From an uncultured Chloroflexia bacterium (GTDB taxonomy: Bacteria > Chloroflexota > UBA6077 > JACCZL01): a DNA stretch of 64,000 nucleotides. The translations under genes were made by a program, and so were the position numbers. The stretch lies in the NCBI GenBank assembly GCA_963765765.1, contig CAVXYC010000023.1, positions 128,001 through 192,000 on the forward strand, given 5' to 3'. Shown here piece by piece: positions 1 through 12,545 of the stretch. Each line of letters opens with the position of its first letter. Position 1 is the first letter of the stretch. The notes beneath the pieces were generated by a model. It searched no databases. It saw only the letters and a list, made by a program, of their open reading frames with translations, and had not been told where the DNA came from.

Positions 1-665
1 TGCTATTCGCGGTCTATATGATCCGGATGCTTCGCTCCACTCAGCAGCAGGTGGAGCAGGCCGTGGCGAGAATTGACCTCGATGCACCGATAGCTCCTCC
101 GATTTCATCGGGTGGCATGGCGGCGGCCATGCCACCCGATGAACCAGAACGGCCACGCCGATTTGCAGTGCGCCCTCGCTGGCGCTGGGAGCATCTACTC
201 TGGCTGGCGCTGGCGGCCTGGGCCGGCGGCATCATCTTCCGAGAGAGCTTGCGCTATACAGGGCCGGCGCAGTTCTTCCCGCTGCTGGCCAGCTCAGGGT
301 TTCTCTTGATCCTGGTGGGGCTAGTCATTACGGACCTGCTCAGGCCTGACCAGCGCGCCAACGAGATCATGGACATCGGCATGCGGACCGGCACGGGCAA
401 GGAAGCATTCCGAGCATTCTTACCCATCGTTGGCTGGATCATCGGGTTCATTGCGCTGATGGGTATTCTGGGACTGCAGCTCGCCAGCATCGTGTTCCCG
501 GCGATCTATATCACCGCGTCGCTTCGATGGCGGGGGAAGAAGGCCTTGTGGGTACTCGCACCAGTCGCGCTCTCGACGTTTGTGTCGGTGATCATTATGG
601 AAAACGTCTTGAACGTCTACTGGCCTGAGCCATTCATTACTTCATGGGTGCAGCGCCGGTTCTAG
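1..665 (+). CDS. 3' part of a tripartite tricarboxylate transporter-like membrane protein (TctB-like C-terminal domain), probably partial at the window edge
   Basis: Several hydrophobic helices, 'PAQFFPLL' and C-terminal 'LNVYWPEP' resemble TctB-type domains; the frame is open from the window start. Confidence 0.5.
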   Translation, partial: LFAVYMIRMLRSTQQQVEQAVARIDLDAPIAPPISSGGMAAAMPPDEPERPRRFAVRPRWRWEHLLWLALAAWAGGIIFRESLRYTGPAQFFPLLASSGFLLILVGLVITDLLRPDQRANEIMDIGMRTGTGKEAFRAFLPIVGWIIGFIALMGILGLQLASIVFPAIYITASLRWRGKKALWVLAPVALSTFVSVIIMENVLNVYWPEPFITSWVQRRF

Positions 666-789
666 ATCAGCGCAAAGCACTTCAGAGTGCGGTGCGGCGT
701 GGGTAGGGCCGCCCTCCACTCTACCCACTGCCCGTATCGGTGATGTCGCCGGAATCCAAAGCGGCCTTCTCCACGCCGCTTCGCACGGG

Positions 790-1351
790 TCAGCGGGTGA
801 TTTCAGCCAGCTTCGCATCGATGACCTGGGCAAAGGTCTCGACGTTTTGCGGCAACGAGGCGCTCACCGTTGATGACGAAGACCGGCGTGGCGATGATGC
901 CGATACTCCGTCCGTTAGTAAGGTCGTCTCGAATCGACGGCAAATCTTCGGCCGAATCGAGACAGGCGCTGAATGGCTCCGGGCTCAATCCGAGATCCAC
1001 GGCGAATTGTTTCAGATTGGCAGATGAGAACTGGCCCTGGTTGTATCCGCGCTGATTCCAGAAGAGAAGATCGTGGTAGTCCCAGAATAGCTCTTCCTGC
1101 CCGGCGCAACGCGCCGCCTGCGCGGCCATTCGACTCTCTTCGCCGATCCAGGCAAAGTCATTCCAGACAACTCGTAGCTGCCCGGTACCGACGTATCGTT
1201 CGATGAGCTGTGGTAACACCTCACGGGTGAATCTTCCACAGCCGGGTCATTGAAAGTCGGCGTATTCCTCCATTGTTACCGGAGCGTCGAGCGAGCCTAG
1301 ATAGCGCTGAGGGTGGGGATCGGACCGTGGAGTTGTGAGGACGTGGAGCAT
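790..1351 (-). CDS. DsbA/thioredoxin-fold oxidoreductase, probable selenoprotein (U-P-G-C); likely indel near 850
   Basis: ORF 1247..1531 ends 'LGSLDAPVTMEEYADFQ' at TGA 1247-1249; the frame continues 'PGCGRFTREVLPQLIERYV' into ORF 803..1219 with cis-Pro 'ATPVFVING'. A one-base shift near 850 gives 'VETFAQVIDAKLAEITR*', similar to the paralog's C-terminus. Confidence 0.85.
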
Positions 1352-1394
1352 AGAATCACCAGGAGTCCACCGCGGTTGATGAATGGGAGGCCCG

Positions 1395-2243
1395 ATGCCA
1401 ACACTCCGCTTTGCCAATGCAGAAGACCTACCGCCCGAAGAGCGCGCCGTCCTTGAGCGGATCGCCAAGCGTATGGGGCGCGCTCCCGATGATTTCGGGG
1501 AGATCTTTCGCGCGCAAGCACATTGGCCCACATACCTGGAAGCGAATCACCAGCAAACACTGTATGGCTTTCGGATCAAGGGCCAATTGCCAGAGATCAC
1601 CAAACAAGCTATGCACGTCGCCGTCTCGATGGCGAATCGGTGCGAGTATTGACTTAGCAGCCATGTAGCCGCCGTGCTGCGGCTGGGACTGACCGAGAAG
1701 GGCGTGACCGAGATCCTCGCAGTGTCCGAGCACACCGTGAGCGTGTGTGCCGCGGCCGAGGGACTGCGTATTCCTTCCGATGTGCCAACTGGGAGCACGC
1801 ACCCGGCCACTGCGATCGTTGCTCCGTTGAGCGATGCCGAACTGGGCGATGCCATTTCCACCATCGAAGCAATTGCCGCCTGGAGCCGCGAGCACCTGGA
1901 CACCGCAACCGCGCCGGCATTCTGGCGAACCATCGCGCACCAGCCGCGCTTTCTACAGGCAACCTGGGCCAAGGACCGACTCATAATGGGGGATGGGGAG
2001 CTTGACGCTGCCGCCAAGGTCTGCACGGCCCTCGCCGTGGCGATGTTCCGTCAGAGCTCGTACTGGACCGGGTACCTTGCGCAACAGCTTCGGCACGACT
2101 TCCGGATGAGCGACGCCACGCTGGTTGAGCTTACGGCCGGCGTGATGCACTACGTATCGTTCAATACGGTGGCGCACGGCATGCGCCTGGCCGCGCCACA
2201 CACAGACATGACCGCGAGCGCATTTCGTGAGCCGGCCCGCTGA
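1395..2243 (+). CDS. Two-domain AhpD/carboxymuconolactone decarboxylase-like protein, probable selenoprotein (C-E-Y-U)
   Basis: 'AVSMANRCEY' + TGA 1650-1652 + 'LSSHVAAVLRLGLTE' joins ORF 1674..2243 in frame; matches the AhpD CxxCxxxH motif with the second Cys as TGA. Confidence 0.85.
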
Positions 2244-2244
2244 G

Positions 2245-2502
2245 TCACCGCTCCACGCTCGCCAGCCTATTTGATGTTCGACGGCTCCTTCCTCCAAGCA
2301 AACTGGGCACGCGGTAGGGATACGGTGTCCGAAGATAGCGCGGCGATTTGTGCACGACGCCCGGGATCGCAGGAATGGGGATACATGTTCCGGTGCCGGG
2401 ATCCCCGGGCTCGTGGAGCGAGATCGCCGCGCTACCCGTAGGGCGCCCATTGTGTGGAAGAGCGTCCGGTGCAGTACTGGCTCTCGCCGTGGAACTATTC
2501 AT
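2245..2502 (-). CDS. Small hypothetical protein, possibly translationally coupled to the upstream AhpD-like gene
   Basis: ATGA overlap at 2499-2502; no recognisable motif. Confidence 0.25.
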   Translation of the reverse strand: MNSSTARASTAPDALPHNGRPTGSAAISLHEPGDPGTGTCIPIPAIPGVVHKSPRYLRTPYPYRVPSLLGGRSRRTSNRLASVER

Positions 2503-3143
2503 CCCCCTTCGAGTTGCCAGATCGGCTTGGGCAATGCCGCGTCACGAACGTCTGCCAGACGACTGGCGCGCTCGCGTCCGGCAACAGCCGACTCGACCGT
2601 GCTATCTGAGAGCTCGAGGCCCAGGGCGTCTACCACCCGCAGGCGAAAGTTGAAATACGCGCAGACCTGCACGATGTCAAGGATGTCGCGGTCGGTCCAG
2701 CCATGGTAGCGGAGCGTCTGCACATCCGCCGCGGTCATGCCGCTGGGATTAATCGTCAGCTTTTCGACGTACTCCAACATCGCAAACTCTGCCGGGCTCA
2801 GGTCCGCTGACCGCCAGTCAGCCTTGAGCGTTTCGGCCACCAGGTCATCGCCGCCCTCTTTACGCAGAGCCTCTGCGTGAGCGGTCGTTCAATACTTGCA
2901 GTTCGCGGTCAGCGAGGTAACCGTGGCAATCATCTCGCGCTGCTGCGTGGTGAGTCCGGAAGGGCCGCGCATGACCTCCCACATCAGCTCCGCCGCGTGC
3001 CACATAGCCTTCGGATTGAGGCTGTGGAGCGAGGAGGGGCTGGGATGCACCCGCTGTTGGCCGCGTTGCTGACGAATCTTCTCGTAGTAATGTAGGAGGT
3101 CCCCGTCAGCCTCGTCGTCGGGGATTGTTCTGATCCAGGTCAT
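2499..3143 (-). CDS. AhpD-like peroxidase-related enzyme, probable selenoprotein (C-K-Y-U)
   Basis: 'MTWIRTIPDDEA...REMIATVTSLTANCKY' + TGA 2889-2891 + 'TTAHAEALRKEGGDDLVAE' joins ORF 2499..2840 in frame, ending with the typical 'YFNFRLRVVDALG'. Confidence 0.9.
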
Positions 3144-3327
3144 GCGCTTCCTCTCATGTGCTCCAAGCACTCGGTATAGCTCACTTCACGGCACTCAACT
3201 CGCTTAGCCCGCGTTATTCACCGCTCACAGCCTACCTGCCACTGAGGATCCTGAGTATCGCGAGAACGTCAACAGGGCATAAGCTTCTTCAGTCAAGGAC
3301 AGCAAGGTAACTCTCCTTGTTGTCATG

Positions 3328-4143
3328 TTAAGGAATGACGGGATCAGGCAAACGTGCCGTGAGCAGCACGTAGCTCAGAATCCCCTGATCGACGGCCTGC
3401 GCCGCGACGCGGGCGAGCGCTGAGGCCTCGTCGAGGTCGACACGGTCGAGCCCGATGCCATGAACCTTCGTCAGTAACTCGCCGCCGGTCAGGCGCAGGC
3501 GAATTTGGCGCACCATCGCAACGAGCGCGGCTCGGTGATCTTCTGTGCGATCGATGGCGAAGCCAGCCTGCTCCAGTTGGCGTACGTATTGCTCCAGCGG
3601 CTGAGCATCGGCAATGCAGCTTACCCAGGCATGGAGCGTCAGGAGCTCAGCGGGCAGAGCTCTCGTTCGGACGAGGTCGCTCAAGCCCAGCCGGCCGCCG
3701 GGGCGGAGGACGCGCGCAAACTCGTTGGCCGCCGTGGGTTTGTCTGGAAACGTGCAGAAGGCGCACTCGCAAATAACGACATCGAACGAGTTGTCGGGGA
3801 ATTGAAGCCGCTCGGCGTCGCCTTGATGGAAATGCACCCGTGCGTCAAGGCCCGCCTCCCTGGCCGTCGTGTCAGCCAGGGCCACGTTCTCAGCCCCGAA
3901 GTCCACGCCGGTCACAGAGCATCCCACCGTCCGGGCGAGGTGGATCGCCGACTCGCCCCGTCCGGAGGCAACATCCAGAACGCGATCCCGCGGAGATAGC
4001 AGGATCAACTCTGCCAGCCGCTCGGTGAGCATCGTCCCACCTGGATGGAACGAGCCAGCCAGGAGCCAGCGCGCCCAATCGCCCTGGTACGCCGCCGCGC
4101 AGCAGGCCTTGAGAATGTCGGGCGAGGGCAACGCTTCAGACAT
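3328..4143 (-). CDS. Class I SAM-dependent methyltransferase, ArsM (arsenite methyltransferase)-like Cys pattern
   Basis: Motif I 'VLDVASGRG', 'RVLRPGG', N-terminal 'CC', and 'VVICECAFCTFPDK' and 'WVSCIADA', which resemble ArsM 'ISNCVINLSPDK' and 'WxGCIAGA'; overlaps the radical SAM stop. Confidence 0.8.
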   Translation of the reverse strand: MSEALPSPDILKACCAAAYQGDWARWLLAGSFHPGGTMLTERLAELILLSPRDRVLDVASGRGESAIHLARTVGCSVTGVDFGAENVALADTTAREAGLDARVHFHQGDAERLQFPDNSFDVVICECAFCTFPDKPTAANEFARVLRPGGRLGLSDLVRTRALPAELLTLHAWVSCIADAQPLEQYVRQLEQAGFAIDRTEDHRAALVAMVRQIRLRLTGGELLTKVHGIGLDRVDLDEASALARVAAQAVDQGILSYVLLTARLPDPVIP

Positions 4144-5644
4144 CGAGACGCGCAGCCGTCACGGCAGGATCGAACGAAAAGCTCAAGGGGATCACGCGTG
4201 CGGTGCGGCCTTCATGTTCAGCTTGCTGTCGCTCCCGCTGACGCCAGGCAAGCTGCGCCCGGGCCTGCTCGCGATAGCCCACGCTGTTGTACGCGCAGAA
4301 CGGGATCTGCTTCCCATCCGGCAGGAGCATCGCCTTGCAGCACTTCATGAGGTTCTTCTGATTGAACGTCCATGGGTCCATGAAGTCCTGGAACATAATC
4401 ATGAACACGCGCTCGGCAAGCGATCCGAGGCTAAGACCATCGGGAAGATCGCAGGCCGCGCAGGAGATCGCAAAGTTGCTCGCCGCGGTGTCCGAGCCGG
4501 GTACAGATGAGCTCGACCACAGCCCCTCCAGCGCGCCCTGGATATCCGCGCCAAGATCGGGCAGGACCCGGTTGGTGATGTAATCCAGGTAGTCCTCCAC
4601 GTTGATCAGCCGAGGCAGCGGCATGATCCTCTCGCCGTCCACATACGCGTAGGTGACGGCGTTGCACGTGGGGAAGCAACAGGGGACAGGAACGAAGTCC
4701 GAGGCGACAAAAAGTTGCTCTGTCTGAGATTCCAGCGCGCCGATGATATCTGGAATCGTCACTCGTTTCAGTGGGTCGTGCGCGCCATGACGGCCAGCGT
4801 GGAACGCGGGTTGAAAATTGACGCCACGGACGGCCGGATGTTCTAGCCCGAAGCGAACGATGCGCCCGACCTCATGCAGGTTCACGTCCCGCTCGATCGC
4901 CGGCACCAGGATGACCTGACAGCCGATCGAGGCGAGTCGGTCAAGCGCCCGCAGCTTCTCATCCAGGAGGTCCGGCTCACCTCGGATGATTTGATATGTC
5001 TCCAATGCAAAACCATCAAATTGAAAATAGATGGACGGCTGCACGGCCGCGAGCTCGGCGAGAAACGCGTCATCACGGGCAATGCGCTTCCCGTTGGTGT
5101 TGAGCATGACATGCGGGATCTGGCGCTCCTGTGCCGCCCGGAGCATCGGAATGATTTGAGGATGGATACTCGGCTCGCCACCTGAGAACTGGACGACTTC
5201 CGGCCGGCCTTCGGTCGCCACGAAATTGTCCAGGATCGCTTCCACGTCATCGAGTGTCAGGCTGAAGCCTACCCCTGCGTTGGCAAAGCACAATGGACAG
5301 TCCATGTTGCAGGCGCTGTTGACCTCGATGATTCCCAGGCAAACGTGCTGCTGGTGGTCCGGACAGAGCCCGCAATCATGCGGGCAGCCGCGGTCAACCT
5401 GACTGCCAAACGCAAGCGGGAACGTGCCTGGCTTGTTGAACCGCGCCAGTCGCACATAAGCTTCGGCGTCTCCGTAGATCAGCGCCTCTACCCGGCCGTG
5501 ATCAGGGCAGCGCTTGCGCATGATGACCTGATTGTCGCGCAGGAGCACCTGAGCGTCGATCGGTCGCCGACATTCGGGACAAATACTGCGGGTGAGCTCA
5601 TGGAACACGTAATCCGCGTTCCGTGGCGAATCAATCACGAACAT
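4136..5644 (-). CDS. Radical SAM enzyme of the MJ0619/Tes (GDGT-MAS, tetraether synthase)-like family
   Basis: N-terminal 'TRSICPEC...KRCPDHG', 'GCPHDCGLCPDH', radical SAM 'CNMDCPLC', 'FSGGEP' and C-terminal 'FMDPWTFNQKNLMKCC...PDGKQIPFCAYN' match the family architecture. Confidence 0.85.
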   Translation of the reverse strand: MFVIDSPRNADYVFHELTRSICPECRRPIDAQVLLRDNQVIMRKRCPDHGRVEALIYGDAEAYVRLARFNKPGTFPLAFGSQVDRGCPHDCGLCPDHQQHVCLGIIEVNSACNMDCPLCFANAGVGFSLTLDDVEAILDNFVATEGRPEVVQFSGGEPSIHPQIIPMLRAAQERQIPHVMLNTNGKRIARDDAFLAELAAVQPSIYFQFDGFALETYQIIRGEPDLLDEKLRALDRLASIGCQVILVPAIERDVNLHEVGRIVRFGLEHPAVRGVNFQPAFHAGRHGAHDPLKRVTIPDIIGALESQTEQLFVASDFVPVPCCFPTCNAVTYAYVDGERIMPLPRLINVEDYLDYITNRVLPDLGADIQGALEGLWSSSSVPGSDTAASNFAISCAACDLPDGLSLGSLAERVFMIMFQDFMDPWTFNQKNLMKCCKAMLLPDGKQIPFCAYNSVGYREQARAQLAWRQRERQQAEHEGRTARVIPLSFSFDPAVTAARLDV

Positions 5645-6198
5645 GCTCCTGTTCTCGGCGGTGAGCGGCTGCCGCCGCCCGAACGGCGTCCACTATCGCA
5701 GAAGGACTGGGGCGGTCCGCGGGCTCCCTGCTGCGGTGGGCGAAGACGATTCGGCCAGCATTATCCAGGACAAAATCGCCGCCAAGCTGGGTAATGTCGG
5801 TTCGGGGCAAACGGAGGGATCGGCCACGCCAAATTCCTCGGACGTACACCATGAGACTCCGCCAGTTCCAGAGTTCGCCGAAGCCGCCCCGCTCCAAGGC
5901 CGAAAGCCCCGTATGCGCGCCGGGTCGGATCACGCAGAAGAGGAAATGGGACATGCTCTCGGTCCGCAAAAAGGGCAGCGCGCTCAGGTGATTCGAACGA
6001 GATAGCCATTACTCTAGCTCCAAGCTCCTCTAGCTCGGTTTGATGATCGCGCAACCGCGCGAGATGCTCTCGGCACGGTATTCAACCCAGCCACCGCAGA
6101 AACACCAGAACCAGCGGTCGCCCGCGCAGCTCAGACAGATGAACCTCGCGTTCATCACGATCCATCAGTACTACGTCGTGAGCGCGCTCACCGATCAC
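5631..6198 (-). CDS. AhpC/TSA (peroxiredoxin-like, PRXL2/SelL-type) protein, probable selenoprotein (U-I-P-C); frameshift near 5900
   Basis: From GTG 6198: 'VIGERAHDVVLMDRDEREVHLSELRGRPLVLVFLRWLG' + TGA 6082-6084 + 'IPCREHLARLRDHQTELEELG...DPTRRAYGAFGL', then shifted to 'QLGGDFVLDNAGRIVFAHRSREPADRP'. Confidence 0.85.
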
Positions 6199-6208
6199 TC
6201 GACGGGCC

Positions 6209-7597
6209 TCACCGGTGCCGCGCCATGAATCGCACAGTCGCACCTCTCCACCCCTGAGTGAGTGCTTTCAGGGTCACGTCGGCGCTGAGCTGCTGAAGAC
6301 CAAAGCTCAATGTTGGGTAGGCATGCATGGTGCCCGCAAGGTCAGCCACCGAGGACCCAAGCCGCAGAGCAACGGCGAGCTCGTTGATCATCTCGCTCAC
6401 ACCACGGCCCACGAGTGTGGCGCCGATGAGCCGGCCGTTCGCTCGGCAGATGAGCTTAATGAAGCCGCGCGTACTGCCCAGCGTCTGTGCGCGGTCCACG
6501 CGGTCCAGCGGTAGGGTATGCACCCTCGTGTCGGCGTTCCTCGCGCGGCAGGCGATCTCGCTCAGGCCGATATGCGCGACCTCGGGGTCTGTGAAGACGA
6601 CCCAGGGAAGCGCCGATCCCGTGCCTGGCAACGCCCCGGGGAGAAGCGCGTTCCGCGCCGCGACGAATCCCTGCCAACCAGCCAAGTGCGTGAATTGCGA
6701 CGCCCCGGTAACGTCTCCCGCGGCGTACACGTGCCGCTGCGATGTGCGTAGATTGCGGTCAAGTTTCAGCCGACCCGCACGGATCGTGATGCCCGCGCGC
6801 TCCAGACCAAGCTGCCGCAATCTTGGGTGCCGACCAGTAGCCACCAGCAATCCGTCGCCCGTGACCGTTCGATCGCCGAGGCTGACTGTGATCTCCGCGC
6901 CATGTGACCGGATGCGGGTGACGGCGTGCTTCAAGAGCAGCGTCACGCCATCGTCCACGAGTGCTCGAGCGAGCGTCTCGCTGGCGGCCGGATCCGCCAC
7001 GGTCAGGACACGATCGGCATGGTCAATGATGGTGACGCGCGCGCCCAGGCGAGCAAATGCTTGGCCCAGCTCAAGACCAACCGGCCCAGCCCCCAGGACG
7101 ATGAGTCTGTCCGGTGTCTGGGTGACGTTGAAGATGTCACGGTACGTCCAGTGCGGCGTGTCTGCCAGGCCCTCGATCGGTGGCTCAGCGGGGCAGGCGC
7201 CAGTGGCAAGGATGATGCGGCGCGCGGAATGAGCCACTTGGCCCACGCACACCGTGTGCGGTCCTTGCATCTCCCCGCGACCAGTGAGGACTTCCACACC
7301 GAGTCGGCTGAGCTGCGCGGAAGACTCTTGCTGACCGACAACTCGAGCGACTTCCTGAACTCGAGCCTGGATAGGTCCGAGATCGGCTAGTCCTGGCCGA
7401 TGGGCTTGAACGTGCGTGTTGGCCAATTCAATCAGCGTCTTGCTCGGGACGCAGCCATACCAGGTGCAGTCGCCGCCCAGGCGCTCCTCCTCGACAATGC
7501 CGACACGCAGGCCAAGCCGACCCGCGAAGTTGGCCGCAGTCAACCCAGCGGACCCGCCGCCGAGCACAAGGAGATCAAAATCTGTCGTTTGCTCCGC
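6209..7597 (-). CDS. Pyridine nucleotide-disulfide oxidoreductase (dihydrolipoamide dehydrogenase/mercuric-reductase-like, not MerA); start codon uncertain
   Basis: 'DFDLLVLGGGSAG', redox 'GGDCTWYGCVPSK', 'GAGPVGLE', 'YAAGDV', 'HAYPT'; lacks the MerA C-terminal Cys-Cys. Confidence 0.85.
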   Translation of the reverse strand, partial: AEQTTDFDLLVLGGGSAGLTAANFAGRLGLRVGIVEEERLGGDCTWYGCVPSKTLIELANTHVQAHRPGLADLGPIQARVQEVARVVGQQESSAQLSRLGVEVLTGRGEMQGPHTVCVGQVAHSARRIILATGACPAEPPIEGLADTPHWTYRDIFNVTQTPDRLIVLGAGPVGLELGQAFARLGARVTIIDHADRVLTVADPAASETLARALVDDGVTLLLKHAVTRIRSHGAEITVSLGDRTVTGDGLLVATGRHPRLRQLGLERAGITIRAGRLKLDRNLRTSQRHVYAAGDVTGASQFTHLAGWQGFVAARNALLPGALPGTGSALPWVVFTDPEVAHIGLSEIACRARNADTRVHTLPLDRVDRAQTLGSTRGFIKLICRANGRLIGATLVGRGVSEMINELAVALRLGSSVADLAGTMHAYPTLSFGLQQLSADVTLKALTQGWRGATVRFMARHR

Positions 7598-7770
7598 CTA
7601 ATGGACGACGTTAGAACTTATTATGCAAGCTCTTTACGACAGAATATGATTTAAAGTTGCTATCCTTCTACTTCAACTAAAAATCCACCGTAAGCCATCC
7701 GTTTCATCGCGCCTGCTCAGCGAGGCTGGTGGCTCGCTCACAACCCAGACAGTAGGCGGAGACGAAGATG

Positions 7771-8730
7771 TCAAGCGTGGGGGCCATACGATTCCACGCG
7801 GGCGTCACCCCGAGAGCGCGCCGGCTCTCCAGTGCGCGAGCCTGTCCGCGTGGCCACACCTGGAGACCTAGCTGTCGTGGGTGAACGGCGGAACCAGCGA
7901 AGGGCGATAACAGTGCCCGCCAGGCCGAAGCCGGCGAGGATCAGCCAGGCCACCGGAGCGAGGTTCGGGCCTTGCTCTGCGATCCATGCCTGGGCATGGA
8001 AGCCGGCGTCATCGAATCCAGCAGAGGCGTAGACGCCGCTGAGTGCTGAAGCGCCTTGGAGGTGGATGAAGCTCGCCCCGAGCAGTATGAGCAGCGTGCC
8101 TGCCAGAAGGCTCGTTGTGTGCGTGTGGAGTGGTCCGATGGGCAGGGTCCGACCGCGGAGCCAGACGCGTCGTCCGAGCTGGAATCGATCCCACAGCCAG
8201 GCAATGACGAACAGCGGCGCCGCCGTCCCAAGCGAATACGTGAAGAGCAGGGCGGCTCCTGCAAGCGGGTTGGCGGTTGACCCGGCAATGGTGAGCACGG
8301 CCCCCAGAAGCGGTCCCGCGCAGAAGCCCGAGACGCCGTATACCAGGCCGGTGAGGTACACGGAGAGCATGCCGCGACCGGTCTGAACTCGTCCGGCTAG
8401 TTGCTGCGGAATGATGGTGAAACCTGTGCCCGTGATCTCGAGCACGCCGAAGCCGATTAACAGCAGGCCAGCGGCGAGGATCGTTTGGTCGCGATAGTCG
8501 AGCAGCAGCGCGGCCACGAGCGACGCGCCGAGCCCGAGGGGAATGAAGATCGTGCAGAGTCCGGCGAGGAAGAGCATCGTCCGGCCGAGGAGCTCTGACT
8601 TGCTTGTGAACGCATAGGCAAAGAACGCTGGTAAGAGGAGCGCGCTGCACGGGGCGAGCAAGGAGAGGACTCCGCCAGCGAATGCCGCGACGAACGCCGC
8701 CTCAAGCATGCCGTGGCCGAATTCGATCAT
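7771..8730 (-). CDS. CcdA/DsbD-family transmembrane electron transporter (cytochrome c biogenesis protein)
   Basis: 'AFAGGVLSLLAPCSALLLP' and 'GFCAGPLLGAVL' with two membrane Cys; multiple TM helices. Confidence 0.85.
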   Translation of the reverse strand: MIEFGHGMLEAAFVAAFAGGVLSLLAPCSALLLPAFFAYAFTSKSELLGRTMLFLAGLCTIFIPLGLGASLVAALLLDYRDQTILAAGLLLIGFGVLEITGTGFTIIPQQLAGRVQTGRGMLSVYLTGLVYGVSGFCAGPLLGAVLTIAGSTANPLAGAALLFTYSLGTAAPLFVIAWLWDRFQLGRRVWLRGRTLPIGPLHTHTTSLLAGTLLILLGASFIHLQGASALSGVYASAGFDDAGFHAQAWIAEQGPNLAPVAWLILAGFGLAGTVIALRWFRRSPTTARSPGVATRTGSRTGEPARSRGDARVESYGPHA

Positions 8731-8809
8731 GACCGTGACCTCAGACGGACCTCAACCCGCACGCCCGAGCCACCGTGAGGCGCGTGCCGATGCACGGCGA
8801 ACGCGTCCA

Positions 8810-9633
8810 CTATCGACTGCCTCGGGCGAGCTCGGCCTCGATGGCCTGCATGAATGAGCTCGCACTGAGCGCGCCGACGAGACGCTGACCGTTGAGAAGA
8901 AACGACGGTGTGGCGCTGATGCCGTGGACGCGGGCCGTTGCCAGGTCCTGCTGGATAGCCGAAAGATCGGCGCTAGCCTCCAGGCAGGTCGCGAACGCGA
9001 CCGGCTCGAGTCCTATGGCTGCCGCGAACGACTTGAAATTCGTTGCGCTGAACTGACCGCCGTTCTCGCCGCGCTGGTTCTGGAAGAGATAATCGTGATA
9101 CGGCCAGAACTGCTCCTGCTGACCGGCGCAGCGCGCCGCCTGGGCCGCCTGCCGGGACTCCTGGCCAATCCAGGCGAAGTCATGCCATACGATACGCAGT
9201 TTCCGGTATCGACGTAGGCTGCGATGAGCTGTGGGGCCACCTCACGGGTGAACCGGCCGCAGCCCGTTCACTGGAAGTCGGCGTACTCGTCGAGCACGAT
9301 CGCCGAGGCCGCGGATCCCAGAAAGTAAGGCCCGGGATATACGCCACTGGCCAGCGTGGGCCCCGACAAGCCGGACGCCAGCGGAGACGGCAGGGCCGAT
9401 ACTGTGGGACCAGGTTTGGACGCCACCGGCGTGGTGGGCGCCGCGGTGGGCTCGGTTGCCCGCGCGGTCGGTGACGGAACCGAGACGGTCGCTGTTGGTG
9501 ACGGCGCGCCGGCAGGCGCGCAGGCGGCAGCCATGATGACGATCGCCAGCGCCGACAGCCACGTCGCGGGCGAGGGGCGCGCGCAGACTGTCCAGAGCCG
9601 TCGCTGACAGATTGAAGCACGAACCTGAGACAC
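8810..9633 (-). CDS. DsbA-family lipoprotein, probable selenoprotein (U-T-G-C); frameshift near 9200
   Basis: Lipobox 'MAAAC', Pro/Thr linker, 'LGSAASAIVLDEYADFQ' + TGA 9268-9270 + 'TGCGRFTREVAPQLIAAYVDTG', then shifted 'LRIVWHDFAWIGQES...SATPSFLLNGQRLVGA...ELARGSR*'. Confidence 0.85.
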
Positions 9634-9743
9634 TAAATAAAGCTCCTGCTGACGTAGTCACTGAACGCCGCCCGAGGCCATTCTAGTCGGGACGCACGGG
9701 CACATTGCTAACGAGGGTTACAAGGCACAGGACGTCGCATGTG

Positions 9744-10433
9744 TCAGCCCTCCGTTCCGACATCGTCGGGCACCAGTCCGCGGCGTACGGCAAAGATCGC
9801 GGCCTGCGTTCGATCCCGCAGACCTGTCTTGGCAAGGATCACTGAGATGTAATTCCGAACCGTGCCCTCGGAGATCATGAGATGGGCGGCGATCTCTCGA
9901 TTGCTGGCGCCACGTCCTAGGAGCGCTAGGACTTCGAGCTCACGGGGGGTGAGTGATTCGCCGCTACCGAGGGCAAGAGGCTCAGTGGTCGCAACGCGGC
10001 CGGCGTGGCGCGCTCGCAGATGGTGCAGGAGCTTCCGCGCGACGGTGGGCTGCAGTGGTGACTCGCCCCGGGCGACCGTCCGGATCGCCTCGGCCAAAGC
10101 GTCCGATCCGATATCTTTGAGAAGGTAGCCGGCAGCCCCTGCTTCAATGGCCTGGAGAACGAGCTCGTCATCGTCAAACGTCGTCAGGACGAGAATCTGC
10201 GCTGACCCTCGGTGGCCGAGGACTGCCTTGGTTGCTGCGATGCCGTCGCGTCGGGGCATGCGCAGGTCCATGAGCACGATGTCCGGTTCATGGTCCCGCA
10301 CCACCCGCTCCGCCTCCAGACCATCCGCCGCCTCGCCGATGACATCGATGTCGGCGTGCAGCTCCAGAAGAGTCCGCAGCCCTTCCCGCATCAGGCTCTG
10401 ATCATCCACGATGACGACGCGAATCGGCTTCAT
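9744..10433 (-). CDS. NarL/LuxR-family response regulator
   Basis: 'VVIVDDQ', 'DIVLMDLRMP', C-terminal HTH 'LTPRELEVL...SNREIA'. Confidence 0.95.
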   Translation of the reverse strand: MKPIRVVIVDDQSLMREGLRTLLELHADIDVIGEAADGLEAERVVRDHEPDIVLMDLRMPRRDGIAATKAVLGHRGSAQILVLTTFDDDELVLQAIEAGAAGYLLKDIGSDALAEAIRTVARGESPLQPTVARKLLHHLRARHAGRVATTEPLALGSGESLTPRELEVLALLGRGASNREIAAHLMISEGTVRNYISVILAKTGLRDRTQAAIFAVRRGLVPDDVGTEG

Positions 10434-10454
10434 CCGGCGTGCATGCGCCGTTCG

Positions 10455-11594
10455 TCAGGCTGCCGCACGTGCCGCGCTCCCAATTGGAATCTCGGCCCGG
10501 AGTTCCCCACCGCCTCCGTCCGCCGTACCAAAGCTTAGTTGGCCGCCGCAAAGCTCAACGCGTTCACGCAACCCGGTAAGTCCGAAGCCTTGCCTAGGTC
10601 CGGAGCCGGCCATCGTCGGCCCTGGCCCATCGTCGCGCACATACACGGAGACCAATGTGCTAGAGCCCTCGAGAGCCACGACCACCTGGCGAACATGAGT
10701 GGCATGCTTCTGCACATTCGTGAGCCCTTCCTGGGCAACTCGATAGAGCGCCTGGGCAACGTCGGACGGAACGTGTTGATCCGGTGGGAGTGAAATCCGC
10801 AGCTCCACCTCGATCGTCGTCGCATCCGAGAAGTCTCTGGTGAGCTTCTCTAGCGCGTGAGCCAGGCTTAGCTCCTCGAGGGTCGCTGCTCTTAGAGCGC
10901 CAACGGATCGACGCACGTCCTGGAGCGAGTCTAGTGTGAGACGGCGCGCCAGGCGCACCGCGGCCAGAGCCCGCTCCTGCTGGGTGGCCGCGAGCTTTTC
11001 GGCCGCCTCGAGCTGCACATTGATGACGGTTAGATAGTGGGCCAGTGAGTCGTGAATCTCACGTGCCATGCGGTTCCGCTCTTGTGCAACCGCGGCCAAG
11101 CGGGCGCGCTCGCTAAGGTCCTGAAGTTGTTGGTGCGCCTTGGACAGTTCGTCGTAAAGCGCCTGTAGGCGGTGCCGGCTGGACGCCTGTCGCAGGACGG
11201 CGAGCGTCAGCACGATCGTGAGCAGATAAAGCGGCAGGACGAAGGAGACGTAACCCGGCAGCTCCGCCAGGCGGTCGGGCCAGGCATACTGCAGCAGGTT
11301 CACGCCGTAAGCCGCCCATACCAGCAGGCTCAGGAGCACGCCGGGCCGCTCCTCGAAGAGCAGCAGCGCTCGACTGGCCGGGACGAGGTAAATCAACGTC
11401 GGCCGAATAAGGGTCCCGTGCGCGCGCACAATCAGGTACCCGATTACGAGCTCCAGCAACAGGCAGCCGATACGCTTCCAATAGGGCGCCTCGGTGCCTG
11501 GCGCTCGGAGCTCGACCAGCGCCATCAACCCCGCCAGGGACGTAAACGTGACGACATACTCTGGTGTCAGGCCGTCCCGCGGTGGTGACAGCAT
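10455..11594 (-). CDS. Membrane sensor histidine kinase (HisKA_3, DesK/NarX-like)
   Basis: TM N-terminus, 'ERNRMAREIHDSLAH', 'QEGLTNVQKHA', 'GFGLTGLRERV'. Confidence 0.95.
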   Translation of the reverse strand: MLSPPRDGLTPEYVVTFTSLAGLMALVELRAPGTEAPYWKRIGCLLLELVIGYLIVRAHGTLIRPTLIYLVPASRALLLFEERPGVLLSLLVWAAYGVNLLQYAWPDRLAELPGYVSFVLPLYLLTIVLTLAVLRQASSRHRLQALYDELSKAHQQLQDLSERARLAAVAQERNRMAREIHDSLAHYLTVINVQLEAAEKLAATQQERALAAVRLARRLTLDSLQDVRRSVGALRAATLEELSLAHALEKLTRDFSDATTIEVELRISLPPDQHVPSDVAQALYRVAQEGLTNVQKHATHVRQVVVALEGSSTLVSVYVRDDGPGPTMAGSGPRQGFGLTGLRERVELCGGQLSFGTADGGGGELRAEIPIGSAARAAA

Positions 11595-11664
11595 GCCCAG
11601 GACCCAGACCCCCAGTGGGAGCGCGAGGCCGGCCAGGCGCAGGAGGCGAATATCTTCCGTTGAG

Positions 11665-12545
11665 CTACTCCACGATCAAGCGTGCCTTCATATTCTGGTG
11701 GAGCGTGCAAAGGTATTCAAATGTGCCCGGCTCCGAGAACGTTACGCTGAACGTCGAGCCTGGGCCCATGCGGCCGGAATCAAAGCCCTTGTCAGTCCCT
11801 GTCACCGTGTGCGCCAGCGGGTCATCGTTCGTCCATGTTACCGTGGACCCCACCCGGACCGCGGCGGTCGCGGGGAGAAACGAGTAGCTCTGAATCCCCA
11901 GGCGCCCGAGCGCTGCTGCCCCGAGCGTGTCGGTTGGCACCGCGCCGCTCGCCCCACTGAAGTAGAGGTTGGCGCGCATCACCCAGTCCCGGGTCGCGCC
12001 AGCGTCCTGATGGCAGAGCGCGCACGCGTGGCTGTCCTGAGGTGGCGTGGCATATGTGCGATCGGGCCGGAAGGCCACCCACTCCCACTCACCCGCGCGC
12101 GCGACCTGGTAGGCCTCTCCAAAACCGGGCTCCTTGCGCTCTACAAATATTCCCGTGAGCTGCTCCTTCTGGAAGCGACGTCGACATCGAGCTCCGGGTT
12201 GCCGTTCGCATCGAGCTTGGCGCGCCACGTCTCCATGACCATGATTGAGCCATAGGGAAATACCTGATTGGGTGGCGCGGAAGGATTTCCCGCCGCGGCC
12301 TCCGCGTTGCCGTAAATTACCCGGACCTGGCGATTGTCCGGTCGATCGAAGACGTAGAGTTGGGGCCATTGTTCATAGCCCTCGGGGAAACCCACGCGGT
12401 CCTCGCTTGGTGCTGGTTTGGGCTGTGCGGCGGTCTGGGCGTGGGCGTCCGATGGTGTCGAATTGAGCCGGGCCAGCTCGATTGGAACGAGTACGACGCT
12501 TGCGAGGACGGAGATCAGCGTGATCCTGAGCACGGAGACGTTCAT
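11665..12545 (-). CDS. Secreted cytochrome P460/c'-beta-family heme c domain fused to a cupredoxin domain; frameshift near 12180
   Basis: Signal peptide; 'VGFPEGYEQW', 'FPYGSIMVME', 'GEWEWVAF', heme motif 'CALCH'; C-terminal 'HTVT...YLCTLHQNM' type-1 Cu ligands. Confidence 0.75.

What the first reader, a model, noticed from the sequence alone, without database searches (positions are those of the whole stretch)
790..9633. Hidden cluster of five probable selenoproteins within 9 kb
Seen in sequence: five genes are split by one in-frame TGA each (1247-1249, 1650-1652, 2889-2891, 6082-6084, 9268-9270). In each case the frame continues without a shift and the TGA replaces a catalytic Cys: FQ-U-PGC and FQ-U-TGC (DsbA), CEY-U and CKY-U followed by xxxH (AhpD), and RWLG-U-IPCRE (AhpC/TSA-like). 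Established: DsbA-like, AhpD-like and Prx-like selenoproteins are each known in bacteria. Inference: this dense grouping with a disulfide reductase, CcdA, a radical SAM enzyme and a methyltransferase suggests a dedicated Sec-based redox system that standard gene callers fragment and miss.
Basis: partly seen in the sequence, partly recalled or inferred. Interest (0 to 1): 0.92.

Follow-up and report, generated by a model that had tools for sequence, protein, structure and literature searches.

The report
Five clustered selenoprotein genes, soil Chloroflexota
Five neighbouring genes for small redox proteins each use a UGA "stop" codon to insert selenocysteine at the catalytic site; they belong to selenoprotein families that are already known, so the notable points are how tightly they cluster and which genes they sit beside.

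Summary
All five in-frame TGAs are at the stated coordinates, each at the catalytic Cys position of a redox motif: FQ-U-PGC, FQ-U-TGC, CEY-U-xxxH, CKY-U-xxxH and LG-U-IPC. Independent short-read contigs undo two of these, and rpoB in the same assembly is also frame-broken, so I read them as assembly indels.

The evidence for selenocysteine is strong:
- The genome has selA, selB, selD and a UCA-anticodon tRNA.
- TGA sits at the same site in orthologues of 38-71% identity, while more distant homologues have Cys there.
- Downstream hairpins fit the bacterial SECIS model. Covariation supports them for two of the three alignments tested (SelL-like, DsbA-like) and not the third (CMD); the g2 hairpin was not put to this test.

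All five families are already catalogued: DsbG-like NF041057, AhpD-like TIGR01926, CMD-like, and Prx-like/SelL-related NF040769.

The nine-gene arrangement was not found in the 40 nearest genomes. Its core is a conserved radical SAM and methyltransferase pair (next-door in 75 of 80 loci), often with a flavin disulfide reductase nearby. This core recruits Sec forms of the SelL-like and CMD proteins in a minority of genomes. DsbA(U)-CcdA is a separate extracytoplasmic module.

Public protein collections hold the g2 family almost only as fragments cut at the TGA.

Verdict: real selenoprotein genes, new members of known kinds.

The parts
790..1351 (-). g1: DsbA/DsbG-like thioredoxin-fold selenoprotein, motif FQ-U-PGC. 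Sec codon at 1247-1249. No signal peptide. The frame is broken near 852 in this assembly.
   Evidence: Pfam Thioredoxin_4 96.8 bits and DSBA 40.1 bits. NCBIfam NF041057, Rcas_1661 (seleno)lipoprotein, 133 bits for the 167-aa N part against a cut-off of 190. The same-genus orthologue is 71% identical with TGA at the same site. Contigs of runs X1 and X4 put CC behind 852, which restores the frame. X1 record 2 matches 1093-1304 with no difference.
1206..1243 (-). SECIS-like hairpin of g1. Apical loop CGUGA, 21 nt after the UGA.
   Evidence: The DsbA-like alignment of 8 sequences is 84.4% paired, with compensatory changes in 4 of 12 pairs; 2 of 500 shuffles reach the covariation score.
1395..2243 (+). 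g2: two-domain CMD/AhpD-superfamily selenoprotein, motif C-E-Y-U-LSS-H. Sec codon at 1650-1652. Intact.
   Evidence: Pfam CMD 54.6 bits. TIGR00778 AhpD core domain 42.8 bits against a cut-off of 27.8. Orthologues in G032 and G028 (47-48% identity) carry TGA at the same site. Full-length Cys forms exist, for example P0248 at 44% identity.
1666..1685 (+). SECIS-like hairpin of g2. 7-bp stem, loop CGUGCU, 20 nt after the UGA.
   Evidence: hairpin dG -10.5. Qualifying hairpins this strong occur at 2.2% of 1500 random genome sites.
2499..3143 (-). g3: AhpD-like 'peroxidase-related enzyme' selenoprotein, motif C-K-Y-U-TTA-H. Sec codon at 2889-2891. Intact.
   Evidence: TIGR01926 130.9 bits against a cut-off of 81.8. 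The three best orthologues (G013, G032, G015) all have C-x-Y-U-xxx-H. X3 record 17 matches 2730-3098 with no difference.
2862..2878 (-). SECIS-like hairpin of g3. 7-bp stem, loop GGC, 17 nt after the UGA.
   Evidence: dG -8.2. Hairpins this strong occur at 4.5% of random sites. A common register across 8 homologues is not supported by covariation.
3328..4143 (-). SAM-dependent methyltransferase, ArsM-like and close to the DVU_1556 family. Not a selenoprotein.
   Evidence: NF045667 142.1 bits against a cut-off of 155; NF008823 112.7 bits against 263. It lies directly downstream of the radical SAM gene in 75 of 80 loci. Orthologues show no conserved internal stop.
4136..5644 (-). Radical SAM enzyme with an N-terminal HMPTM-type zinc ribbon, related to Tes and TrsS. 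Not a selenoprotein. Its reading frame overlaps those of g4 and the methyltransferase.
   Evidence: Pfam PF23545 62.5 bits and PF04055 60.2 bits. NF045702 Tes 315.4 bits against 450, and NF045646 TrsS 308.7 bits against 490, both below cut-off. 373 relatives in genome contigs, 69-76% identical in the 80 loci kept.
5631..6243 (-). g4: SelL-related, Prx-like thiol:disulfide oxidoreductase selenoprotein, motif G-U-IP-C. Sec codon at 6082-6084. The frame is broken at about 5887-5897 in this assembly.
   Evidence: AhpC-TSA 70 bits. NF040769 scores 87.9 bits (N piece) and 66.3 bits (C piece) against a cut-off of 120. The 10 best places in relatives all carry TGA. Motifs are GULPC or GULHC in 3 genomes and GULHU in 4. 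The frame switch is mapped.
6047..6062 (-). SECIS-like hairpin of g4. 6-bp stem, loop GGUU, 25 nt after the UGA.
   Evidence: In 14 orthologues, 91.8% of cells are paired and 4 of 7 pairs show compensatory changes; 0 of 500 shuffles reach the covariation score, and slid controls give 14-55% paired.
6209..7567 (-). FAD/NAD(P)H pyridine-nucleotide disulfide oxidoreductase, class I with a CxxxxC site, MerA/Lpd-like.
   Evidence: Pyr_redox_2 193.6 bits and Pyr_redox_dim 96.6 bits. Best NCBIfam hits are PRK06370 353.8 against 620 and MerA 333.7 against 454, all below cut-off. A homologue lies within 10 kb of the radical SAM gene in 37 of 80 loci.
7771..8730 (-). CcdA/DsbD-family membrane thiol-disulfide electron conduit.
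   Evidence: Only weak NCBIfam hits to TsoB and DsbD. 62-64% identical orthologues lie directly downstream of the DsbA(U) gene in G007 and G008, and the start of such a gene follows it in G003.
8810..9633 (-). g5: DsbG-like thioredoxin-fold selenolipoprotein, motif FQ-U-TGC. Sec codon at 9268-9270. Signal and lipobox-like N-terminus. The frame is broken at 9199-9202 in this assembly.
   Evidence: NF041057 scores 56.2 and 88.9 bits in two pieces. Orthologues in G008, G007 and G003 read FQUPGC. A 1809-nt contig of X1 at depth 13.4 puts G behind 9202, which restores the frame. All 20 of its substitutions are listed and none lies at 9268-9270.
9226..9265 (-). SECIS-like hairpin of g5. Apical loop CGUGA, 21 nt after the UGA.

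Best explanation
The region encodes five genuine selenoproteins. In each, UGA is decoded as selenocysteine by the organism's SelA/SelB/SelD/tRNA-Sec system, guided by a hairpin 17-25 nt downstream. Sec sits at the attacking position of a redox motif: UxxC in two DsbG/DsbA-like proteins and one SelL-related Prx-like protein, and CxxU-xxxH in two AhpD/CMD proteins. The three extra frameshifts are assembly indel errors, not gene decay.

The genes form two functional modules. This part is inference.

(A) An extracytoplasmic module: the selenolipoprotein g5 is kept reduced by the membrane conduit CcdA and acts as a disulfide reductase or isomerase outside the cell.

(B) A cytoplasmic operon running PNDR, g4, radical SAM, methyltransferase and perhaps g3. 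Its conserved core is the radical SAM and methyltransferase pair of unknown product. An NAD(P)H-driven flavin disulfide reductase would feed electrons to the Sec oxidoreductases (g4; the CMD proteins g2 and g3; perhaps the signal-less g1). These would serve or protect that chemistry. This resembles the Lpd-AhpD-AhpC relay, which I recall from memory and did not test.
For: Sec machinery in the genome:
- selA 555.5 bits and, adjacent to it, selB 312.4 bits plus its C-terminal piece on contig C14.
- selD 381.6 bits, itself containing one TGA.
- An 86-nt tRNA with anticodon UCA and a long variable arm on C15.
- selA is over its cut-off in 37 of the 41 genomes of the lineage searched.
- TGA is not generally reassigned: rpoB, rpoC, selA and selB contain no internal stops.

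TGA is conserved at the same site, with Cys in more distant homologues:
- g3: 3 of 3 best orthologues (38-40% identity) have C-x-Y-U-xxx-H, and 3 distant homologues have C-V-[YF]-C.
- g2: 2 of 2 orthologues (47-48%) have C-x-F-U. Cys stands at that column in 5 full-length homologues.
- g1/g5: 5 of 5 TGA-bearing loci inspected read FQUPGC, and 8 of 8 loci without TGA read [FY]QCPAC.
- g4: the 10 best places outside G000 all carry TGA, and the motif was confirmed in 7 relatives.

Other support:
- Coding potential continues in the same frame across each TGA.
- All five hairpins meet the published bacterial SECIS constraints. Covariation supports the SelL-like and DsbA-like hairpins.
- Frameshifts are assembly errors. 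Short-read contigs insert CC behind 852 (X1 and X4) and G behind 9202 (X1, depth 13.4), each restoring the frame. rpoB lies in three different frames within about 500 nt, and an EF-Tu-like gene is also split.
- Modules. DsbA(U) is followed by CcdA in G003, G007, G008 and L110. The PNDR, g4, radical SAM and methyltransferase reading frames overlap by 8-35 nt. A Sec-form SelL-like gene lies beside or near the radical SAM gene in 8 of 80 loci, and a Sec-form CMD gene about 2.3-4.9 kb from the start of the radical SAM gene in 5 of 80 (4 just past the methyltransferase, 1 upstream).
Against: - No experiment shows selenium in these proteins.
- Hairpin energies are not lower than those of dinucleotide shuffles (z from -1.7 to +0.1).
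- 64% of 1500 random sites in this GC-rich genome pass the loose SECIS model, and the upper hairpin of g1 and g5 is matched at 34% of random sites.
- A common hairpin register is not supported for the CMD group.
- The g4 frameshift could not be checked, because no listed contig spans it.
- The X4 contig that carries the CC insertion also lacks one base at 1005 and one at 1028. At depth 3 it is weak support.
- The genome is a bin with 6.85% contamination, and the Sec machinery lies on contigs other than the one holding the cluster.
- The functional model is inferred from gene neighbourhood only. The full arrangement was not seen in any of the 40 nearest genomes. Most radical SAM and methyltransferase loci had no selenoprotein neighbour that my queries could detect.
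Confidence: 0.88

Rival explanations
1. The genes are decaying pseudogenes. The TGAs are nonsense mutations and the frameshifts are further damage.
For: Three of the five genes carry a frameshift as well as the TGA, while the four neighbouring non-Sec genes are intact. g1 lacks the signal peptide that its same-genus orthologue has.
Against: The TGA sits at the identical catalytic position in orthologues from other genera at 38-71% identity. Two of the three frameshifts are absent from independent contigs. The essential rpoB gene is frame-broken in the same assembly. Codon usage stays in frame on both sides of each TGA.
Confidence: 0.04
2. The TGAs are sequencing or assembly errors for TGC or TGT, so the proteins are ordinary Cys proteins.
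For: The assembly clearly contains errors.
Against: The errors seen are indels, not substitutions. Contigs from other runs reproduce the TGA of g1 (X1, no difference over 1093-1304), g3 (X3, no difference over 2730-3098) and g5 (X1, all 20 substitutions listed, none at the codon). Other genomes have TGA at the same sites.
Confidence: 0.01
3. The five are true selenoprotein genes, but their proximity has no common function. Independent modules (DsbA-CcdA; radical SAM-methyltransferase; stand-alone CMD genes) merely lie side by side, for example in a variable or horizontally acquired region.
For: In the 40 nearest genomes only DsbA(U)-CcdA recurs. Orthologues of g2, g3 and g4 lie elsewhere, away from these partners. 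Radical SAM orthologues were found in only 8 of 40 relatives, a patchy spread, and not in the same-genus genome. g1 and g2 are transcribed divergently from the rest.
Against: The PNDR, g4, radical SAM and methyltransferase reading frames overlap. Sec-form SelL-like genes (8 of 80 loci) and CMD genes (5 of 80) recur next to the same radical SAM-methyltransferase pair in several phyla. One locus, L110, also has DsbA(U)-CcdA 2.4 kb away.
Confidence: 0.35

Closest known systems
DsbG-like / Rcas_1661-family thioredoxin-like (seleno)lipoprotein (NCBIfam NF041057; listed as 'DsbG-like protein, UxxC' in review PMC13188914)
   Same: g1 and g5 share the thioredoxin fold, the UxxC motif with Sec in the first position, and, for g5, the lipoprotein-type N-terminus. 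NF041057 is their only NCBIfam hit. Orthologues with Sec lie beside CcdA.
   Different: Scores are below the 190-bit cut-off: 133 bits for the g1 fragment, and 56.2 plus 88.9 bits for g5 in two pieces. This is at least partly because the frameshifts forced me to score pieces. g1 has no signal peptide or lipobox.
AhpD-like (TIGR01926, CxxU) and CMD-like (PF02627, CxxU) selenoproteins
   Same: g3 passes the TIGR01926 cut-off (130.9 against 81.8). g2 and g3 have C-x-x-U-x-x-x-H, with Sec at the second Cys position of the AhpD motif.
   Different: g2 is a 282-aa two-domain form. It reaches only the AhpD core-domain model and no family-level model: TIGR01926 42.9 against 81.8, NF041238 18.1 against 175. 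Its close relatives are recorded in public collections almost only as post-TGA fragments.
Prx-like thiol:disulfide oxidoreductase / SelL-related redox protein (NF040769; the review lists UxxC and UxxU forms). Eukaryotic SelL with UxxU is recalled from memory.
   Same: g4 has the AhpC/TSA fold and UxxC at the thioredoxin-like position. Relatives in G003, G004, G005 and G007 have G-U-L-H-U, a UxxU motif.
   Different: g4 itself has one Sec (UxxC). Membership rests on adding the scores of two frame-separated pieces.
Multi-selenoprotein operons: SAO (six selenoprotein genes), Tso (three plus adjacent ones), frhA-frhD-hdrA-glpC, and the Prx-like with AhpD-like clustering seen in ocean metagenomes (review PMC13188914, section 'Selenoprotein operon', passages seen)
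   Same: Several unrelated selenoprotein genes are packed into one neighbourhood together with non-Sec enzymes. A Prx-like gene next to an AhpD-like gene has been reported before.
   Different: The gene content differs: a Tes/TrsS-like radical SAM enzyme, an ArsM-like methyltransferase, a flavin disulfide reductase, CcdA and two DsbG-like proteins. I could not read Haft and Tolstoy 2025 (mSystems), which is not held. I therefore cannot say whether this neighbourhood is described there.
TrsS radical SAM (seleno)protein with a DVU_1556-family methyltransferase (NCBIfam NF045646, NF045667)
   Same: It is the same pairing of an HMPTM-zinc-ribbon radical SAM enzyme with this methyltransferase type, in a selenoprotein-rich neighbourhood.
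   Different: Both proteins score below the family cut-offs (308.7 against 490; 142.1 against 155). The radical SAM enzyme has no Sec codon here, and in the 80 orthologous loci the only internal stop is a single one, in one locus, at a non-conserved column. It scores equally well against Tes (315.4 against 450).

Membership tests
Bacterial selenoprotein gene (general) | An in-frame UGA at a position where homologues have a redox-active Cys | tested here: met
   Cys stands at the Sec column in homologues of all four family types. For g4, Cys-form homologues are inferred only from places that have no TGA; I did not inspect them residue by residue.
Bacterial selenoprotein gene (general) | UGA conserved in orthologues of other genomes | tested here: met
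   g1/g5: 5 loci. g2: 2. g3: 3, plus 5 next to radical SAM genes. g4: 7, plus 7 next to radical SAM genes.
Bacterial selenoprotein gene (general) | A bSECIS hairpin: 3-9 nt loop with G in its first two positions, stem of at least 4 bp, 16-37 nt after the UGA, MFE at most -7.5 | tested here: met
   All five meet every constraint (model quoted). The filter is weak, since 64% of random sites pass it. Covariation supports the g4-type and g1/g5-type hairpins but not the g3-type.
Bacterial selenoprotein gene (general) | selA, selB, selD and tRNA-Sec in the genome | tested here: met
   Rfam's generic tRNA model outscored the tRNA-Sec model on this tRNA. ARAGORN calls it tRNA-SeC with anticodon TCA.
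Bacterial selenoprotein gene (general) | Selenium shown to be incorporated into the protein | not testable with these tools
   Needs 75Se labelling or mass spectrometry.
NF041057 Rcas_1661 / DsbG-like (seleno)lipoprotein | Score over the curated cut-off (190 bits) | tested here: inconclusive
   g1 N part 133 bits. g5 pieces 56.2 and 88.9 bits. The frameshifts prevented scoring the whole proteins.
NF041057 Rcas_1661 / DsbG-like (seleno)lipoprotein | Lipoprotein signal peptide | tested here: inconclusive
   g5 has a hydrophobic segment followed by AAAC, aligned with the LALAC and LGAC of its orthologues. This was read by eye. g1 has none. No signal-peptide predictor was available.
NF040769 SelL-related redox protein | Score over the curated cut-off (120 bits) | tested here: inconclusive
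   87.9 bits (profile positions 3-99) plus 66.3 bits (100-172) on two frame-separated pieces, a rough sum of 154. Neither piece passes alone.
TIGR01926 peroxidase-related enzyme (AhpD-like) | Score over the curated cut-off (81.8 bits) | tested here: met
   g3 scores 130.9 bits. g2 scores 42.9 bits, which is not met for g2.
NF045646 TrsS radical SAM (seleno)protein | Score over the cut-off (490 bits) | tested here: not met
   308.7 bits. The gene has no internal TGA.
NF045702 tetraether lipid synthase Tes | Score over the cut-off (450 bits) | tested here: not met
   315.4 bits.
NF045667 DVU_1556-family methyltransferase | Score over the cut-off (155 bits) | tested here: not met
   142.1 bits, a near miss.

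The most novel reading that the evidence does not exclude
The radical SAM (Tes/TrsS-like) and methyltransferase pair, often with a flavin disulfide reductase, is a widespread uncharacterised pathway of soil Chloroflexota, Acidobacteriota and neighbouring phyla. In Sec-using lineages it recruits its thiol-oxidoreductase helpers almost exclusively as selenoproteins: 8 of the 9 SelL-like neighbours and 5 of the 5 CMD neighbours had a stop at the Sec site. This window holds the fullest version seen. That would imply that the pathway's chemistry specifically benefits from selenol reactivity, for example in handling a metalloid or another organo-element intermediate. In addition, the two-domain g2 type would be a predominantly Sec-containing CMD subfamily that has no family-level model and is stored in databases as fragments labelled 'hypothetical protein'.
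Probability: 0.3. Interest if true: 0.65.

Novelty: new member of a known kind. Interest (0 to 1): 0.5.

Why it matters
The finding adds five well-supported selenoprotein genes to a soil Chloroflexota lineage. Five in 9 kb is a density comparable with the largest selenoprotein neighbourhoods on record, which hold three to six Sec genes.

It ties Sec-dependent thiol oxidoreductases to a conserved radical SAM and methyltransferase pair whose product is unknown. That pair is present in cultured Ktedonobacteria, so the association gives a handle for working out what the pair does.

It also shows concretely how annotation fails. The g2 family is stored in public collections almost entirely as fragments cut at the TGA. 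A noisy long-contig assembly adds frameshifts on top, and these could be misread as gene decay.

Tried and rejected
- **Genome-wide selenoprotein count.** I tried a codon-score filter plus a Sec/Cys self-BLAST. It gave 232 'pairs', dominated by antisense shadows and by near-duplicate contigs in the bin. It was too noisy to count from, so I checked only a few candidates individually.
- **Folding energy against shuffles** gave no significant z-score for any of the five hairpins.
- **Rfam scan** of 1-12000 returned only a chance microRNA hit at E = 0.6.
- **Promoter and terminator scan** found no more sites than shuffled sequence does, so it was uninformative for defining operons.
- **First SelL covariation test** with 8 sequences was not significant (55 of 500 shuffles). 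I repeated it with 14 sequences, leaving out the unpublished genome.
- **Run coverage**. No listed contig spans the g4 frameshift or the g2 TGA. An X3 contig spans the g4 TGA with one difference whose position was not shown. For the X4 contig over the g3 TGA, only 7 of its 13 differences were shown. None of these is counted as evidence.
- **Pseudogene, sequencing-error and code-reassignment readings** were considered and rejected, as set out under the rival explanations.
- **Structure and complex predictions** were not run. The fold assignments were already clear, and CcdA with a thioredoxin-fold partner is a textbook pair.
- **Supplementary files of papers** were not requested. Supplementary tables of the review and of BSepDB may list these very families or genomes.

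Full report
**What is in the sequence**

The window is contig C23, 128001-192000, of a 6.49-Mb, 33-contig genome bin. The bin is 91.8% complete with 6.85% contamination. Reading 1-10500 directly and translating with TGA=U confirms five in-frame TGAs at exactly the stated coordinates:

| Gene | Strand | Extent | TGA | Motif |
|---|---|---|---|---|
| g1 | minus | 790-1351 | 1247-1249 | EYADFQ-U-PGCG |
| g2 | plus | 1395-2243 | 1650-1652 | NRCEY-U-LSSH |
| g3 | minus | 2499-3143 | 2889-2891 | ANCKY-U-TTAH |
| g4 | minus | 5631-6243 | 6082-6084 | RWLG-U-IPCRE |
| g5 | minus | 8810-9633 | 9268-9270 | EYADFQ-U-TGCG |

A codon-usage log-odds score trained on this genome's long ORFs is highest in the reading frame on both sides of each TGA, for all five genes and at all three window sizes tried.

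The intervening genes are intact:
- an ArsM-like methyltransferase (3328-4143);
- a radical SAM enzyme with an HMPTM-type zinc ribbon (4136-5644);
- a class-I flavin disulfide reductase (6209-7567);
- a CcdA/DsbD-family membrane protein (7771-8730).

g1, g4 and g5 each also change frame once, downstream of the TGA. tblastn with intact orthologues puts the g4 switch at about 5887-5897 and the g5 switch at 9199-9202. The g1 switch is near 852.

I read these as assembly indels, for three reasons.
- Short-read contigs from other public runs insert CC behind 852. These are X1 at depth 3.9 and X4 at depth 3, from two different studies.
- A 1809-nt X1 contig at depth 13.4 inserts G behind 9202. Both insertions restore the frame expected from the orthologues.
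- The essential rpoB gene of the same assembly matches its family model in three different frames within about 500 nt, and an EF-Tu-like gene is split as well.

Two caveats apply. The X4 contig also lacks one base at 1005 and one at 1028, which would break the frame, so it is poor support on its own. No listed contig covers the g4 frameshift, so that one is unresolved.

**Are the TGAs selenocysteine codons?**

*Machinery.*
- selA (555.5 bits) and the adjacent selB lie on contig C14. selD (381.6 bits) on C21 contains a TGA itself.
- ARAGORN finds an 86-nt tRNA with anticodon TCA on C15. Rfam scores it best with the generic tRNA model, but the alignment shows the UCA anticodon and a long variable arm.
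- selA is over its cut-off in 37 of the 41 genomes of this lineage that were searched.
- rpoB, rpoC, selA and selB have no internal stops. g2 and g3 both end in TGA. So TGA has not been generally reassigned.

*Conservation of the TGA, with Cys in more distant homologues.*
- g3: 26 of 41 genomes have a homologue. The three best (G013, G032, G015; 38-40% identity) all read C-x-Y-U-xxx-H. Three distant homologues read C-V-[YF]-C-xxx-H; one of these is from the unpublished genome G006.
- g2: 5 of 41 genomes match. The two orthologues at 47-48% identity read CRFULSGH and CDFULSSH, and two weak hits have Cys.
- g1/g5: 22 of 41 genomes match at E ≤ 1e-8. All 5 TGA-bearing loci inspected read FQUPGC, and all 8 loci without TGA read [FY]QCPAC.
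- g4: 28 of 41 genomes match. The ten best places outside G000 all carry TGA. My motif search hit 8 of the 14 loci examined, counting G000. Among the relatives, three read GULPC or GULHC and four read GULHU. The other six loci did not match the pattern, and I did not examine them further.

*Independent contigs.*
- The g1 TGA is reproduced in X1, with no difference over 1093-1304.
- The g3 TGA is reproduced in X3, with no difference over 2730-3098.
- The g5 TGA is reproduced in X1. All 20 substitutions of that contig are listed and none is at the codon.

*SECIS.* The model quoted in review PMC13188914 (passage seen) requires a 3-9 nt loop with G in its first two positions, a stem of at least 4 bp, 16-37 nt of spacing from the UGA, and an MFE of at most -7.5. 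All five sites fit it:

| Gene | Loop | Spacing (nt) | Stem (bp) |
|---|---|---|---|
| g1 | CGUGA | 21 | 4 |
| g2 | CGUGCU | 20 | 7 |
| g3 | GGC | 17 | 7 |
| g4 | GGUU | 25 | 6 |
| g5 | CGUGA | 21 | 4 |

This filter is weak.
- 64% of 1500 random sites in the genome pass it.
- Hairpins as strong as those of g2, g3 and g4 occur at 2-5% of random sites.
- The upper hairpin of g1 and g5 is matched at 34% of random sites.
- Shuffle z-scores are not significant.

Covariation is more telling.
- In 14 SelL-like genes, 91.8% of cells pair and 4 of 7 pairs show compensatory changes. None of 500 shuffles reaches the covariation score, and slid controls give 14-55% paired.
- In 8 DsbA-like genes, 84.4% of cells pair and 4 of 12 pairs are compensatory; 2 of 500 shuffles reach the score.
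- For 8 CMD genes, a common register is not supported (156 of 500).

**Family placement**

From NCBIfam:
- g1 and g5 hit only NF041057, the Rcas_1661-family thioredoxin-like (seleno)lipoprotein. g1 scores 133 bits and g5 scores 56.2 and 88.9 bits, against a cut-off of 190, all scored as pieces.
- g4 hits NF040769, the SelL-related redox protein, at 87.9 and 66.3 bits against a cut-off of 120.
- g3 passes TIGR01926 (130.9 against 81.8).
- g2 passes only the AhpD core-domain model.

The 2026 review lists the following as known prokaryotic selenoprotein families (passages seen):
- AhpD-like (TIGR01926, CxxU);
- CMD-like (PF02627, CxxU);
- DsbG-like (NF041057, UxxC);
- Prx-like thiol:disulfide oxidoreductase (PF00578, UxxC or UxxU).

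The review also describes multi-selenoprotein operons: SAO with six Sec genes, Tso with three plus neighbours, and Prx-like with AhpD-like clustering. BSepDB catalogues 57,630 selenoproteins in 111 families and subfamilies, including Dehalococcoidia (phylum Chloroflexota) with 46-49 each (passages seen). So the families are known.

**Is it one system?**

In the 40 nearest genomes only DsbA(U)-CcdA recurs (G003, G007, G008). Orthologues of g2, g3 and g4 lie elsewhere in those genomes.

The radical SAM gene has close orthologues (62-77% identity) in 6 of the 40 relatives and more distant ones (35-38%) in 2 more. None was found in the same-genus genome.

A scan of species-representative genomes found 373 relatives. 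The 80 loci kept are 69-76% identical and come from Chloroflexota (including cultured Ktedonobacter, Dictyobacter and Tengunoibacter), Acidobacteriota, Armatimonadota and Dormibacterota. Within those 80 loci:
- the methyltransferase is next door in 75;
- a homologous flavin reductase lies within 10 kb in 37;
- a SelL-like gene is present in 9, and 8 of them have a stop at the Sec site;
- a g3-like CMD gene is present in 5, all with a stop at the Sec site;
- CcdA is present in 2;
- a DsbA(U) gene is present in 1 (L110).

The methyltransferase, radical SAM, reductase and CcdA orthologues show no conserved internal stops.

In the window, the PNDR, g4, radical SAM and methyltransferase reading frames overlap by 8-35 nt. 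A roughly 200-nt AT-rich gap separates CcdA from the reductase.

My reading, which is inference, is two modules. One is an extracytoplasmic CcdA-to-selenolipoprotein reducing module. The other is a cytoplasmic operon whose conserved core is the radical SAM and methyltransferase pair, with Sec oxidoreductases as optional helpers. The pair's product is unknown. Database names for it are 'radical SAM protein', 'tetraether lipid synthase' and 'hydroxymethylpterin dimethyltransferase'. Bacterial Tes homologues have been hypothesised to make branched tetraether lipids (PMC8941075, passages seen). The methyltransferase is closest to the ArsM/DVU_1556 types.

**Gene-caller fragmentation**

- Of 192 database proteins matching g2 at E ≤ 1e-10, the 120 listed are all 167-225 aa long and cover 59-67% of the query. 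All 10 that I aligned begin 2-21 residues after the Sec site.
- An exhaustive HMMER search found 328 hits. Of the 8 hits with E ≤ 1e-30, one spans the Sec site and seven begin at query residues 90-105. Thirteen of the 150 listed hits end exactly at residue 85.
- The spanning homologues have Cys at the Sec column.

So this subfamily is mostly Sec-containing and is stored as fragments, but it is not exclusively Sec-containing.

**Verdict**

The selenoprotein interpretation is strongly supported. The claim of a single dedicated system is only partly supported. Novelty is modest: these are new members of known families in a neighbourhood type that is already recognised.

**Limits**

- Haft and Tolstoy 2025 could not be read.

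Noticed in passing
G000:C20:326017-329370 (rpoB) and G000:C20:253894-254767: rpoB matches its family model in three different reading frames within about 500 nt, and an EF-Tu-like gene is split between two frames. The assembly therefore carries indel errors even in essential genes.
   Followed up: partly
L058 (G005), L061 (G004), L063 (G003), L064 (G007): Orthologues of g4 in four related genomes read RWLG-U-LH-U. That is two Sec codons 9 nt apart (UxxU) served by one downstream hairpin, whose loop starts 25 nt after the first UGA and 16 nt after the second.
   Followed up: partly
window 3328-5644; L104-L183: The radical SAM and methyltransferase pair is very widely conserved: 373 relatives in species genomes at 69-76% identity in the 80 loci kept, and 4819 proteins at E ≤ 1e-30. 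It carries only generic or conflicting names and falls below both the Tes and the TrsS cut-offs, so its function is unknown.
   Followed up: partly
G000:C21:109024-109443 (next to selD at C21:109702-110619) and G000:C15:327546-327944: Two DUF427 (PF04248) genes have an in-frame TGA inside the domain, at T-x-U-P-W-[KR]-G. The same-genus genome G001 also has two TGA forms, while the matches listed in the other relatives have no TGA. DUF427 does not occur in the text of the 2026 selenoproteome review.
   Followed up: partly
G000:C15:164113-164766: A MEDS-domain (PF14417) ORF has an in-frame TGA at residue 166, inside the domain match, 3.3 kb from the tRNA-Sec gene. Two paralogues have Cys at that column. 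Not verified further.
   Followed up: no
G000:C10:99715-100170 and G000:C4:14110-14667: Two further probable selenoprotein genes lie elsewhere in the genome. One is a peroxiredoxin with FTAG-U-T (TxxU). The other is a YciW-related CMD protein with GCPF-U (NF053654, 158 bits, cut-off 310).
   Followed up: partly
G000 contigs C4/C5/C11, C13/C17, C22/C27: The self-BLAST showed long stretches of near-identical protein-coding sequence shared between these contigs, with E-values down to about 1e-100. The bin seems to hold duplicated or strain-variant segments, which fits its 6.85% contamination estimate.
   Followed up: no
window 7565-7600: The flavin reductase's first canonical start codon (GTG at 7567) lies inside the conserved N-terminal strand (…DFDLL-V-LGGGSAG). 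An in-frame TAG lies 11 codons upstream with no ATG, GTG or TTG between them. This points to a non-canonical start or another assembly error.
   Followed up: no
window 7600-7700: An AT-rich intergenic stretch lies between the end of CcdA and the reductase gene, in an otherwise 61% GC region. It is a likely promoter region for the cytoplasmic operon, but the consensus promoter scan found nothing there.
   Followed up: partly
window 790-1394; L042/L083 (G001): g1 lacks the signal peptide present in its 71%-identical same-genus orthologue. It abuts the divergently transcribed g2 with only 43 nt between them. It may be a cytoplasmic derivative of an exported selenolipoprotein.
   Followed up: no
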